Position numbers: made by a program. From Glycera tridactyla (lineage: Eukaryota): 64,000 bases of DNA. Below, in pieces: positions 44,901 to 47,900 of the stretch. Each line of letters begins with the position of its first letter. Position 1 is the first letter of the stretch. The DNA lies in assembly GCA_965644265.1 (NCBI GenBank), contig OZ286461.1, positions 44,640,001 to 44,704,000 of the forward strand, given 5' to 3'.

Positions 44901-47900
44901 GCATGCTTTCAACTGGCCTGAATGACTATTGGTCGGCATGTGATGTTCTGCCTTCACAACAATGGACGAGATATATCTATAACGGCCCCATTGATCTCAA
45001 GAGTTACACCGGTAATGGCCACCTCAATAGGCATTTTGGCTTAGTAACCCTGCCCCTTTCAGTATCCATGTGCTGCTGTTGTATGCCTGCACACATATAA
45101 CATCTAGTCTGAACCGCACTATAGCACAGTCTTATTCAACACCTTTTTCAAGATTCAGATATTAAAATCAGTGATACCAATTTTGAAGAGATTTTTTTGA
45201 ATTCAGGAAATTTGTCTCCAAAATTGAATACTGAAAGTTTCCCTGATTGGGTTGAGAGTACCGAATCGGCAGTCTTTGAAAGTACATGTATATGAGTATA
45301 TTTTCAGGTTATTTGCCCACATTATAGGAAATCTCGTAGATGTTATGTCGGTTACTCGCTCGCCGGTGTTAACAGGAGAGAGTAATAGCAGATTATATCA
45401 TGTAAAAATGTTAGCATGAGTGATCCTGATAATACATGGAATTTGTTACTCTTAATATATGCTTTATATATTTATCAGGGGTTAATAGCATGATTCTAGT
45501 TCCAGTCTGTAGCACGTTATGCTCATCAACATCATGACAACAGCAGTGAAATTGTATGGAAGTAATGACTTGCGACCAATTGTTGTTTGTCACTGGGACG
45601 GCTATCGAGATATGCAAGGCACAAGAATCAATTCCTGGCAGAGAAGATGGCAGGTTGACACATGGTAAAATCAATTGTGTATTTTGAGCCGCGTGGCTTC
45701 GGCCTTTGATCGTGTTTATTGGATCGTGAATGGCAAGCACAAGATGAGCTCCGCTGACCGAGGACGATCGGCACCGAGAGAACGAACGTCGGCTGTGTGC
45801 TCCGATGCGAACTAATCCATGTCTATGTCATGATAAAGGCAGTATAGACCTGCTATGAAGCCATGTCAGCCATCTTCATATGCTTGACTGGTTCCCTTAC
45901 TTGGCAAGATCATGTCTCTCAACTGGCACCTTCACTAAAGTGAAAGCTAGACTTCCTGTGAGGGCCTTGCTCATTATCTAGCAAGATAGATGATAACAGA
46001 ATCTCCACATCGAGCTCCCATCTCAGAATCCGCCATCATTCTGCATCTATTCATTGAGTTACATTGCTATTTCGGGTCATATTATAACTATTTATCCATT
46101 GAAAATGTGTGAATCCATTACATATTGGTCAGTAATTTTAGAACATTGCTTAAACCCCATGTTAGACTTAAAATCTGACTGAACTTTGGATTATAGCATG
46201 CAGATAGCTGCACATCTCCTGGTCGTGCAGATGGATCGACGGATTTTACTTTCACCTGCAACAATGGATGGGTGAAAAATGATCATGATTTTACTTGCTT
46301 GGATGTAAGTTGCTATCCCTCTGGCCACTAGTTGGATGATTTTTATACGCCATCGGGCTGTCCGTCTGTGCGTCTGTCCGTCCGGAGGACCATTTCCGGA
46401 CGATAACTCAAAAAGTTTTAGAGCAATTGATTTGCCACTTGGTATACCTAACCACCTTGGGTCTGGGAGGAAGCCTTTCGATTGTGGGGTTGCGACCTTG
46501 ATTTTCAAGGTCGCTGAGTGCAAAAAGGTCAAATCTCTGGTCCGGACCATTTCCGGACGATAACTCAAAAAGTTTTAGAGCTATTGATTTGCCACTTGGT
46601 ATACCTAACCACCTTGGGTCTGGGAGGAAGCCTTCCGATTGTGGGGTTGCGACCTTGATTTTCAAGGTCGCTGAGTGCAAAAAGGTCAAATCTCTGGTCC
46701 GGACCATTTCCGGACGATAACTCAAAAAGTTTTAGAGCTATTGATTTGCCACTTGGTATACCTAATCACCTTGGGTCTGGGAGGAAGCCTTTCGATTGTG
46801 AGTTGCGACCTTGATTTTCAAGGTCGCTGAGTGCAAAAAGGTCAAATCTCTGGTCCGAACCATTTCCGGACGATAACTCAAAAAGTTTTAGAGTTATTGA
46901 TTTGCCACTTGGTATACCTAATCACCTTGGGTCGGGGAGGAAGCCTTTCGATTGTGAGTTGCGACCTTGATTTTCAAGGTCGCTGAGTGCAAAAAGGTCA
47001 AATCTCTGGTCCGAACCATTTCCGGACGATAACTCAAAAAGTTTCAGAGCTATTGAGTTGCCACTTGGTATACCTAATCACCTTGGGTCTGGGAGAAAAC
47101 CTTTCGATTGTGGGGTTGCGACCTTGATTTTCAAGGTCGCTGAGTGCAAAAAGGTCAAATCTCTGGTCCGGACCATTTCCGGACGATAACCCAAAAAGTT
47201 TCAGAGCTATTGATTTGCCACTTGGTATACCTAATCACCTTGGATCTGGGAGGAAGCCTTTCAATTGTGGGGTCGCGACCTTGATTTTCATGGTCACTGA
47301 GTGCAAAAAGGTCAAATCTCGAGTCCAGACCATTTCCGGACGATAACTCAAAAAGAGCTATTGCTTTGCCACTTGGTATACCTAATCACCTTGGATCTTG
47401 GAGGAAGCCTTCCGATTGTGGGGTTGCGACCTTGAATTTCAAGGAAGATGCCTATTGATTTCGCAGTCATAACCTTTGATCCCGGTCACCGAGTGCAAAA
47501 AGATAAAATCCTATTGCAGACAATTTCTGGATGAAAACAGTCTGTGTCACTAGTCACGGCAATAAAGGTCAAATCCCATTCCAGATGAAAAAAAGTCTGC
47601 CTCACTAATCGCGGCGATGGCGTATTATGCCCCGCTTTGCGGTGCTCTTGTTTTTATATCTTCTCAGATGGCTAGAGCTGTGTGCCATAAAGGCCTCGAC
47701 ATGATGCAGGTGAGCTAGTGTCTTTCTCGCAAGTGGGATTCGGCCTTTGACACATAGTGTCATGTAGCACATGTTGATTTGGCCATGGTAGAGTGAGAGG
47801 GCGTGCTAGGCAGCTGACAGGATGATGACTCTTGTAGGGTTTCCTATACTAATGGCATCAGATGATGAGCTGACTCCATCTTGACTCACAATGCTCCACC

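What the first reader, a model, noticed from the sequence alone, without database searches (positions are those of the whole stretch)
46341..47655. Complete HINE/DINE-1-like element acting as a satellite nursery
All modules are visible: T-run insertion site, 11-bp subTIR pair, GTCY microsatellite, 6.7 x 156-157 bp central array, and a 3' stem-loop. Established: Helentron non-autonomous elements in Drosophila and bivalves carry and amplify central tandem repeats that seed satellite DNA. This family and monomer may be undescribed for this organism.
Basis: partly seen in the sequence, partly recalled or inferred. Interest (0 to 1): 0.65.

Follow-up and report, generated by a model that had tools for sequence, protein, structure and literature searches.

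The report
Repeat-carrying transposon of a known type
This is one well-preserved copy of a non-coding mobile element of a kind already described in clams, oysters and fruit flies, carrying a short block of 157-base tandem repeats; it is a tidy example, not a new kind of thing.

Summary
The architecture fits the HINE / DINE-1-like class (non-autonomous Helentrons). [quoted passage not shown] The published DTC84 left-flank primer matches the element's 3' end 17/20, in the right place and orientation. Repeat length, ACGG-type microsatellite, truncated distal repeat, spacer and a 12-nt palindrome at the repeat junction (10/12 identical, palindromy kept) also agree. It is not DTC84 itself: the other three DTC84 primers do not match. 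Six of seven shared variants sit in neighbouring repeats, and identity falls from the microsatellite end towards the 3' end, so the array grew stepwise. "Satellite nursery" and "undescribed family" could not be tested: the window holds one copy, no stand-alone array and no Rep/helicase gene, and no eukaryotic genome, Repbase or Dfam was available. Verdict: real, ordinary, a new or uncatalogued member of a known kind. Low interest.

The parts
46340..46344 (+). 5' boundary T-run (TTTTT). How many Ts belong to the element is not determinable from one copy.
   Evidence: Sequence. HINEs carry strings of 2-5 T at their boundaries (PMC4067079 Results).
46345..46355 (+). 5' subterminal inverted repeat (subTIR) ATACGCCATCG
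   Evidence: exact, one of only 2 hits in the window. Chance test.
46360..46383 (+). Tetranucleotide microsatellite GTCC GTCT GTGC GTCT GTCC GTCC (the ACGG/ACAG type on the other strand). It runs into the first monomer through GTCCGGA.
   Evidence: The motif class is shared with Cg_HINE_1, 3, 6, 8, 10_13 and 11_12 (PMC7492417 Results) and with DTC84/CvG (PMC3879986).
46387..47444 (+). Central array: six full 156-157-nt monomers plus one 118-nt monomer truncated at the end far from the microsatellite. Neighbour identities from 5' to 3' are 98.7, 98.1, 98.1, 95.5, 92.4 and 92.4%.
46538..47175 (.). 12-nt palindrome TGGTCCGGACCA spanning monomer junctions. Exact at 46538, 46695 and 47164; one mismatch at 46851 and 47007. 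The sixth junction has decayed.
   Evidence: 5 hits at up to 2 mismatches, all at junctions. Compare the DTC84 palindrome TTGTCCGGACAA (PMC3879986, section 11).
46492..46514 (.). Intra-monomer hairpin GCGACCTTGA-TTT-TCAAGGTCGC (10-bp stem), repeated in monomers 1-5 and weakened in monomers 6-7.
   Evidence: I3-I12; monomer fold -29 kcal/mol, z -4.53, 0 of 200 shuffles as stable.
47445..47614 (+). 170-nt spacer between the array and the 3' subTIR. Positions 47447-47538 are an old, diverged monomer piece (consensus 84-157 then 1-21, 65 of 95 columns identical). A second short partial copy lies near 47558-47585.
   Evidence: 0 of 500 and 0 of 300 shuffles, and 0 of 144 real controls, reach the score.
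47615..47625 (-). 3' subTIR, the exact reverse complement of the 5' one, 25-30 nt from the 3' end
47629..47645 (+). 3' palindrome / stem-loop GCcCCGC TTT GCGGtGC, 5-10 nt from the terminal T-run
   Evidence: -4.3 kcal/mol, z -2.47, 5 of 200. It is weak on its own.
47633..47652 (-). 20-nt stretch matching the published DTC84 left-flank primer DTC84mobF 17/20 (first 14 nt exact), pointing into the element
   Evidence: the only hit in 64 kb, 0 of 100 shuffles. Primer read in PMC3879986 Methods.
47651..47655 (+). 3' boundary T-run (TTTTT)

Best explanation
The region 46340-47655 (+ strand) is one structurally complete, non-coding copy of a pearl/DTC84-type element. This is the mollusc form of the HINE / DINE-1-like class of non-autonomous Helentrons.

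Shown here: the module order is T-run, 5' subTIR, GTCY microsatellite, 157-bp tandem array, spacer with an old monomer remnant, 3' subTIR, short hairpin, T-run. The 3' terminus and the repeat-junction palindrome are related to DTC84 of Donax trunculus.

Inferred from the literature on the class, not shown here: the element was inserted into a T-rich site without target-site duplication. The insertion would have been made by a Helentron Rep/helicase/endonuclease supplied in trans, which recognises the subTIRs and the 3' hairpin and copies the element by rolling-circle replication.

The central array was not made in one burst. It grew by stepwise duplication of neighbouring monomers, through unequal exchange, replication slippage at the hairpin-rich junctions, or partial rolling-circle re-replication. 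The newest and most uniform monomers lie next to the microsatellite and the oldest at the 3' side. Whether this growth happened at this locus or in the master copy before insertion is unknown.
For: (1) All modules are at the expected relative positions. They match the HINE description (subTIRs, 3' palindrome 8-35 bp from the end, T strings; PMC4067079 Results) and the Cg_HINE description (11-12-bp subTIR, GTCY/GTCC microsatellite at the end of the left flank, 140-180-bp repeats, subTIR plus palindrome in the right flank; PMC7492417 Results).
(2) Homology: DTC84mobF matches 47633-47652 (-) 17/20 as the sole hit in the window, 0 of 100 shuffles. It sits exactly at the flank far from the microsatellite and points inward, as in DTC84 (L + core repeats + microsatellite + R).
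(3) Further DTC84 traits are reproduced. The core is 156-157 nt against 156 bp. The inverted motif is 11 bp, terminal on the microsatellite side and subterminal on the other. The distal repeat is truncated (118 of 157 nt; DTC84 loses 4-67 nt). The spacer is 170 nt (DTC84 spacers are about 80 bp and 70-160 bp). A 12-nt junction palindrome is 10/12 identical, and its two differences fall on the two positions that pair with each other (PMC3879986 sections 10-11).
(4) No coding capacity: array ORFs have no Pfam family and no homologue.
(5) Stepwise growth: 6 of 7 shared variants are carried by adjacent monomers (57 of 20000 permutations do as well). Neighbour identity declines from 98.7% to 92.4% from 5' to 3'. 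A 68%-identical monomer relic lies beyond the array.
(6) Relative youth: CpG observed/expected is 0.82 in the element against 0.43 in the window, and the subTIRs are perfect.
Against: The window holds a single copy and no other fragment of it. Mobility, copy number, exact boundaries and absence of a target-site duplication therefore all rest on analogy. No empty site could be examined. No Rep/helicase/endonuclease is in the window: 408 ORFs were scanned and no match reached a curated cut-off. For the oyster Cg_HINEs the authors themselves could not link any autonomous Helentron to the elements (PMC7492417 Discussion). The subTIR pair alone has a chance probability of about 0.015-0.02. The hairpin is only 4+2 bp and loses significance in a wider context. 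The IR next to the 5' subTIR, typical of DINE-1 and Cg_HINE, is not clearly present. The 3' subTIR is 25-30 nt from the end against 38-60 in the mite HINEs. Three of four DTC84 primers do not match.
Confidence: 0.8

Rival explanations
1. It is a cut-and-paste MITE with terminal/subterminal inverted repeats and an AA/TT dinucleotide target-site duplication, moved by a DDE transposase. This is the original classification of pearl and DTC84.
For: The T-runs on both sides can be read as a TT (AA) duplication, as the DTC84 authors did (PMC3879986 sections 10 and 14). An 11-bp inverted pair is present. The window does contain an unrelated Tc1/mariner-style MITE family, so such elements are active in this genome.
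Against: The inverted repeats are asymmetric: one adjoins the T-run and the other is 25-30 nt inside, followed by a hairpin. That is the Helentron pattern, not a TIR pattern. Thomas et al. showed by empty sites that such elements make no target-site change and share ends with Helentrons, and they call the MITE annotation incorrect (PMC4067079 Results). T strings of 5+5 are longer than a dinucleotide duplication.
Confidence: 0.1
2. It is a HINE, but the direction is the reverse of a 'nursery'. The array was captured from a pre-existing satellite (filler-DNA capture), and the element merely disperses it.
For: Both scenarios are discussed as open for Cg_HINEs, and related flanks are found carrying unrelated repeats (PMC7492417 Discussion). 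Here the 3' flank is DTC84-like while the core-repeat primers of DTC84 do not match, which is compatible with cassette-like exchange of the repeats.
Against: A diverged monomer relic lies in the spacer beyond the array. The junction palindrome GTCCGGAC is made of the microsatellite unit GTCC followed by its complement GGAC, and the first monomer starts in register at the microsatellite. Both observations suggest the repeat has long been part of the element. The DTC84-like junction palindrome argues that the cores are diverged homologues, not unrelated captures.
Confidence: 0.2
3. It is a locally born minisatellite whose flanking inverted repeat, T-runs and hairpin are coincidences, and not a mobile element at all.
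For: There is only one copy in the window. The inverted pair alone reaches p of about 0.02, and the hairpin is weak.
Against: A 17/20 match to a primer designed on a clam transposon flank sits at exactly the predicted end and orientation. The co-occurrence and order of six modules also match published elements (PMC3879986, PMC7492417).
Confidence: 0.03

Closest known systems
[quoted passage not shown]
   Same: The module order is the same when read on the minus strand: L flank, spacer, truncated first repeat, core repeats, ACGG-type microsatellite, R flank. The core is 156 bp against 156-157 nt here. The inverted motif is 11 bp, subterminal in L and terminal in R. AA (= TT) lies at the ends. 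The first 20 nt of the L-flank primer match 17/20. A 12-nt palindrome at the repeat junction is 10/12 identical. Repeat variants are ordered along the array.
   Different: The core-repeat primers and the R-flank primer of DTC84 find nothing at up to 3 mismatches. The flank on the microsatellite side is only about 16 nt here against about 50 bp. There are 6.8 repeats against 1-5. The palindrome differs at two paired positions. The full DTC84 sequences (figures, supplements, GenBank) were not available, so the true overall identity is unknown.
pearl family (CvA, CvE, CvG) of Crassostrea virginica (Gaffney et al. 2003; not read, known only through citations in PMC3879986 and PMC7492417)
   Same: Short arrays of up to six repeats of about 160 bp, an adjacent tetranucleotide microsatellite (ACGG in CvG), and terminal/subterminal inverted repeats.
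   Different: No sequence was available for comparison. DTC84 itself is only 57% similar to CvG in its core repeats (PMC3879986).
Cg_HINE_1 to Cg_HINE_11_12 of Crassostrea gigas (Vojvoda Zeljko et al. 2020, PMC7492417; Results and Discussion part 1 read)
   Same: An 11-12-bp subTIR pair, a GTCY/GTCC/GTCK microsatellite ending the left flank, 140-180-bp central repeats in a fixed orientation, a right flank of subTIR plus palindrome, T-rich sites and no TSD. Some copies lie in non-coding parts of genes.
   Different: Cg_HINE left flanks carry a 7-12-bp IR 1-12 bp from the subTIR, which is not clearly present here. None of the 13 published cluster consensus lengths (138-181 bp) equals 156-157, the nearest being 162 and 147 bp. 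The consensus sequences are in figures and supplements that I could not see.
HINE / DINE-1 and their autonomous Helentrons (Thomas, Vadnagara & Pritham 2014, PMC4067079; Results parts 1-2 read)
   Same: SubTIRs, a 3' palindrome near the end, strings of Ts at the boundaries, optional microsatellite and tandem repeats, and no coding capacity.
   Different: The 3' subTIR is closer to the end (25-30 nt against 38-60 in the mite families). No autonomous partner is known for this element. There is no DINE-1 'core'.

Membership tests
HINE (non-autonomous Helentron; Thomas et al. 2014) | Pair of subterminal inverted repeats of 11 bp or more, the 5' one a few nt from the 5' end and the 3' one tens of nt from the 3' end | tested here: met
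   Exact 11-mer pair at 46345-46355 / 47615-47625. It lies 0-5 nt from the 5' end and 25-30 nt from the 3' end. Chance level: 31 of 2000 shuffles, 8 of 372 real controls.
HINE (non-autonomous Helentron; Thomas et al. 2014) | Palindrome of 5-10 bp forming a stem-loop 8-35 bp from the 3' terminus | tested here: met
   GCcCCGC-TTT-GCGGtGC at 47629-47645, 5-10 nt before the T-run: -4.3 kcal/mol, z -2.47, 5 of 200 shuffles. It is weak and not significant in a 61-nt context.
HINE (non-autonomous Helentron; Thomas et al. 2014) | Insertion in T-rich sequence with strings of T at both boundaries | tested here: met
   TTTTT at 46340-46344 and 47651-47655.
HINE (non-autonomous Helentron; Thomas et al. 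2014) | No target-site duplication, shown by paralogous empty sites | not testable with these tools
   It needs the source genome. The window holds a single copy.
HINE (non-autonomous Helentron; Thomas et al. 2014) | Shares subTIRs and the last ~60 bp with an autonomous Helentron encoding Rep/helicase/endonuclease | not testable with these tools
   There is none in the window: 408 ORFs were scanned and no match reached a curated Pfam cut-off. No eukaryotic genome collection was available.
HINE (non-autonomous Helentron; Thomas et al. 2014) | Interspersed, multi-copy | not testable with these tools
   One copy in 64 kb. No hit in prokaryotic genome contigs, as expected.
DINE-1 / Cg_HINE architecture | Short IR complementary to the 5' subTIR, 1-12 bp downstream of it | tested here: inconclusive
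   There is only an interrupted complement of about 6 nt (within TGTGCGT of the microsatellite) about 16 nt downstream. The 5'-end fold gives z -2.31, 6 of 200 shuffles. The mite HINEs also lack the IR (PMC4067079).
DINE-1 / Cg_HINE architecture | Microsatellite at the inner end of the left flank, followed by central tandem repeats of about 140-180 bp | tested here: met
   Six tetranucleotides at 46360-46383, then 6.8 x 157 nt.
DTC84 (Donax trunculus) | L-flank sequence | tested here: met
   DTC84mobF matches 17/20 with the first 14 nt exact, at the correct end and orientation. Only 20 nt of the flank could be compared.
DTC84 (Donax trunculus) | Core-repeat sequence | tested here: not met
   DTC84AluSatF and DTC84AluSatR give no hit at up to 3 mismatches. 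Only the length (156-157 nt) and the junction palindrome (10/12) agree.
DTC84 (Donax trunculus) | R-flank sequence | tested here: not met
   DTC84mobR gives no hit at up to 3 mismatches. The flank here is about 16 nt.
DTC84 (Donax trunculus) | Array in register with the microsatellite, and the repeat farthest from it truncated | tested here: met
   Monomer 1 is full and abuts the microsatellite. Monomer 7 is 118 of 157 nt.

The most novel reading that the evidence does not exclude
The repeat-junction palindrome may be a working cis-site and not a passive landmark. Two elements whose core repeats and microsatellite-side flanks have diverged beyond primer recognition (this one and DTC84) keep the same 3' terminus. 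They also keep a 12-nt junction palindrome whose only two differences fall on the two positions that pair with each other. The palindrome core GTCCGGAC is the microsatellite unit GTCC joined to its complement GGAC. Each monomer is unusually hairpin-rich (z -4.5). The array is youngest at its 5' (microsatellite) end. Together these would fit a model in which the Helentron machinery, or stalled replication at the junction hairpin, re-initiates or terminates at monomer boundaries and so adds monomers directionally. That would make the element itself the engine of array growth.
Probability: 0.12. Interest if true: 0.6.

Novelty: new member of a known kind. Interest (0 to 1): 0.25.

Why it matters
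As it stands this is a clean, annotatable example of a transposon class already known to scatter satellite-like repeats through bivalve and insect genomes. It should be masked or labelled as such and not treated as a novel feature. Its modest value is comparative. It gives a second element with a DTC84-like 3' end and junction palindrome but different core repeats and a different microsatellite-side flank, and it preserves a stepwise duplication history. With the whole genome in hand, that would help test how these arrays grow and whether the flanks act as a cassette for exchangeable repeats.

Tried and rejected
(1) Gene context. The exon-like ORF just upstream (46197-46328, ending at a GTAAGT) has no Pfam family and no homologue among longer proteins, so 'intronic insertion' is unsupported.
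(2) Looking for other copies through spurious protein predictions. The 107-aa array ORF found nothing.
(3) Autonomous partner or any gene in the window. Pfam was run on 55 of the 86 stop-to-stop ORFs of 90 aa or more; the 31 that overlap N runs were left out. It was run on 128 of 161 ORFs of 38 aa or more in 41.9-53.4 kb; 11 already scanned and 22 inside the array were left out. It was run on all 225 ORFs of 55-89 aa elsewhere. The only results were four sub-threshold matches (HIPIP, DUF4508, TOBE, Cytochrom_C1), which I take as noise.
(4) Rfam at gathering threshold gave 0 matches and ARAGORN gave 0 tRNAs, so nothing points to a SINE-like origin.
(5) Full-text paper searches for the subTIR, its complement and a 20-nt monomer motif returned only unrelated primer coincidences in 6 papers. 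The terminal 14-mer occurs in print only in the DTC84 paper.
(6) One scan of prokaryotic genome contigs with a 20-nt monomer motif gave 0 hits. That collection holds no eukaryotes, so this says little.
(7) Organism identification failed. Only composition (GC 42.4% without Ns, CpG o/e 0.43) and the clam-like element point anywhere. Nothing suggests a human contig.
(8) A TA/AT target-site duplication reading of the inverted-repeat ends was considered. It was dropped because AT is self-complementary and cannot be told from an extension of the repeat.
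Full report
WHAT IS THERE. The sequence at 46340-47655 was read directly. Tandem Repeats Finder reports a single long-period array in the whole window, at 46387-47444: period 157, 6.8 copies, 95% matches. Anchoring on a conserved motif resolves six full monomers of 156-157 nt and a 118-nt seventh monomer that also has a 6-nt internal deletion.

The 11-mer ATACGCCATCG occurs twice in 64 kb at up to 1 mismatch, once on each strand, at 46345-46355 and 47615-47625. The left copy directly follows TTTTT (46340-46344). The right copy is followed by TAT, a short hairpin GCcCCGC-TTT-GCGGtGC (47629-47645), CTCTTG and TTTTT (47651-47655). Between the left copy and the array lie six tetranucleotides, GTCC GTCT GTGC GTCT GTCC GTCC (46360-46383).

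IS IT MORE THAN CHANCE? The array certainly is. The inverted pair alone is only modestly unusual. An exact inverted match of 11 nt or more between the 200 bp left and 300 bp right of the array arose in 31 of 2000 dinucleotide shuffles and in 8 of 372 same-geometry controls taken from this window. The hairpin is small: -4.3 kcal/mol, z -2.47, 5 of 200 shuffles as good. In a 61-nt context it loses significance (z -1.67, 13 of 200). What makes the ensemble convincing is the order and spacing of the modules and an independent homology signal, described below.

SURROUNDINGS. No other piece of the element occurs elsewhere in the window: blastn with word size 9 returned 25 rows, all inside the element. 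The window has ten N runs (2510 N), none inside or touching the element; they were left alone.

No Pfam domain reaching a curated cut-off was found in 408 ORFs. These comprise 55 of the 86 ORFs of 90 aa or more (the 31 overlapping N runs were dropped), 128 of 161 ORFs of 38 aa or more in 41.9-53.4 kb (11 already scanned and 22 inside the array were dropped), and all 225 ORFs of 55-89 aa elsewhere. The only matches were four sub-threshold ones. So there is no Rep/helicase gene and no recognisable host gene nearby.

Rfam and tRNA scans were empty. An exon-like ORF ending in GTAAGT just upstream (46197-46328) has no family and no homologue, so the idea that the element sits in an intron is unsupported.

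The organism could not be identified. Nothing suggests human sequence. GC is 42.4% without Ns, and CpG observed/expected is 0.43 for the window against 0.82 for the element. This suggests a methylated genome and a comparatively young insertion.

CLOSEST RELATIVE. Literature searches led to three key papers: the HINE definition (PMC4067079, Results parts 1-2 read), the oyster Cg_HINE paper (PMC7492417, Results and Discussion part 1 read) and the DTC84 paper on the clam Donax trunculus (PMC3879986, sections 7, 10, 11 and 14 read).

DTC84 is described as L flank + 1-5 core repeats of 156 bp + (ACGG/ACGA) microsatellite + R flank. It has an 11-bp inverted motif that is subterminal in L and terminal in R, and AA at both ends. 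The core repeat farthest from the microsatellite is truncated by 4-67 nt. Spacers of about 80 bp and of 70-160 bp occur between L and the repeats. A 12-nt palindrome, TTGTCCGGACAA, ends every core repeat.

Read on the minus strand, the window element reproduces each of these points. The repeats are 156-157 nt. The microsatellite is of the ACGG/ACAG type. The inverted repeat is terminal next to the microsatellite side and lies 25-30 nt inside on the other side. Five As lie at each end. The distal repeat is truncated (118 of 157 nt). There is a 170-nt spacer.

The palindrome TGGTCCGGACCA lies at the monomer junctions: 3 exact and 2 with one mismatch (all 5 hits at up to 2 mismatches in the window); the sixth junction has decayed. 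It differs from the DTC84 palindrome at positions 2 and 11 only, which are the two positions that pair with each other.

The four DTC84 primers printed in that paper's Methods were then run against the window. The L-flank primer DTC84mobF matches 47633-47652 on the minus strand at 17/20 with the first 14 nt exact. It is the only hit in 64 kb, with none in 100 shuffles. It sits exactly on the hairpin and terminus and points into the element.

The R-flank primer and both core-repeat primers find nothing at up to 3 mismatches. In the searchable paper library, the terminal 14-mer occurs only in the DTC84 paper. The element is therefore a relative of DTC84 that shares its 3' end (in HINE orientation), but it is not DTC84 itself. 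The DTC84 authors noted that divergent elements of this type, with distinctive flanks, exist in that genome. Whether this window comes from that species or another bivalve is unknown.

CLASSIFICATION. Thomas et al. cite DTC84 and pearl among DINE-1-like elements (PMC4067079 Background and reference list). They show that such elements are non-autonomous Helentrons, with subTIRs, a 3' palindrome, T strings that are part of the element, no target-site change, and ends shared with Rep/helicase/endonuclease-encoding partners. The oyster paper lists pearl, DTC84 and MgE as comparable HINE-type elements (PMC7492417 Discussion).

Of the defining features, I could test and confirm the subTIR pair, the 3' palindrome (weak), the T strings, the lack of coding capacity, and the microsatellite plus central array. 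The short IR next to the 5' subTIR seen in DINE-1 and Cg_HINE is not clearly present. There is only an interrupted complement of about 6 nt some 16 nt downstream (z -2.31, 6 of 200); the mite HINEs lack it too. Absence of a target-site duplication, multi-copy dispersal and an autonomous partner could not be tested, because no eukaryotic genome collection, Repbase or Dfam was on hand. The one scan of prokaryotic genomes was empty, as expected.

HOW THE ARRAY GREW. Neighbour identities run 98.7, 98.1, 98.1, 95.5, 92.4 and 92.4% from the microsatellite end to the 3' end. Beyond the truncated seventh monomer, positions 47447-47538 still align to consensus positions 84-157 then 1-21 at 65 of 95 columns. 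No shuffle reached this score (0 of 300). With a stricter scoring, 0 of 500 shuffles and 0 of 144 real controls did so.

Of the 7 variants carried by more than one monomer, 6 are carried by adjacent monomers, in a staircase pattern: 1-2, 3-4 (twice), 4-5, 5-6 and 6-7. Only 57 of 20000 permutations do as well; the exception is a variant shared by monomers 2 and 7. This is the signature of stepwise duplication of neighbours with mutations accruing in between. It is not the signature of a single amplification burst. [quoted passage not shown]

The younger end is the 5' end in Helentron orientation. A 2025 review (PMC12628747, passages only) notes that partial rolling-circle re-replication should amplify 5' sequences more often than 3' ones. 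Unequal exchange or slippage is an equally good explanation, and the data here cannot separate them.

Each monomer is strongly structured: -29 kcal/mol, z -4.53, 0 of 200 shuffles. It has a 10-bp hairpin and a 7-bp hairpin overlapping the junction palindrome. The palindrome core GTCCGGAC equals the microsatellite unit GTCC plus its complement GGAC, and the first monomer starts in register at the microsatellite. Only 3 of 23 distinct substitution types are CpG transitions.

ON THE 'SATELLITE NURSERY' CLAIM. That HINEs carry, spread and sometimes seed satellite-like repeats is established in the papers above. Nothing in this window shows this copy doing so. There is one copy and no stand-alone array. 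Its 6.8 monomers are above the 1-5 reported for DTC84 but within the oyster range, where 15.6% of arrays have 5 or more monomers and the longest has 29.3 (PMC7492417 Results). The opposite direction, capture of an existing satellite, remains possible. The monomer relic in the spacer and the microsatellite-derived junction argue mildly against it.

VERDICT. The functional gloss and the novelty claim remain untested. This is a new or uncatalogued member of a well-known kind. The supplementary alignments and tables of the DTC84 and Cg_HINE papers, the pearl paper (Gaffney et al. 2003, not seen) and the oyster satellitome papers (PMC8268682 and PMC11136912, seen only as search listings) may already contain this family.

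Noticed in passing
window 1135-1299, 25861-26046, 32553-32721, 48079-48262, 60314-60490 (fragment 53874-53935): A MITE family of about 175 bp with at least five copies (78-92% identical). It has terminal inverted repeats beginning TACAGTCGAACCTC and internal 17-nt tandem units (the TRF rows with period 17). It looks like a Tc1/mariner-type miniature element. One copy lies only about 420 bp downstream of the HINE.
   Followed up: partly
window, whole; element 46340-47655: The window is strongly CpG-depleted (observed/expected 0.43, GC 42.4% without Ns), whereas the HINE copy has CpG o/e 0.82. This fits a methylated genome and a relatively recent insertion.
   Followed up: partly
window 47506-47515 (inside the spacer's old monomer relic): At the position equivalent to the junction palindrome, the diverged relic reads TTGCAGACAA. 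It keeps the outer TTG...CAA of the DTC84 palindrome (TTGTCCGGACAA) and not the TGG...CCA of the young array. This hints that the DTC84 form is ancestral. It rests on a single site and is speculative.
   Followed up: no
window 13034-13126: A (TCCA)23 microsatellite is preceded by GCCGTCCGTCC, the same GTCC unit as in the HINE left flank. No subTIR, T-run or repeat array is evident beside it. It could be a decayed HINE left end or a coincidence.
   Followed up: partly
window 27307-27393, 28806-28911, 29007-29058: Minisatellite-like 10-nt units (GCGACTACGC and variants) flank the largest block of N runs (27453-28805). The masked stretch was not examined.
   Followed up: no
window 55574-55756 / 59147-59328, and 57958-58115 / 63490-63647: Two further dispersed repeat pairs (97% over 183 nt, 90% over 158 nt) of unknown type.
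   Followed up: no
window 46197-46328 (+): An open frame with cysteine spacing reminiscent of an EGF-like module ends at a GTAAGT donor-like site 35 nt before the element. It has no Pfam family and no homologue, so its status as an exon is unproven.
   Followed up: yes
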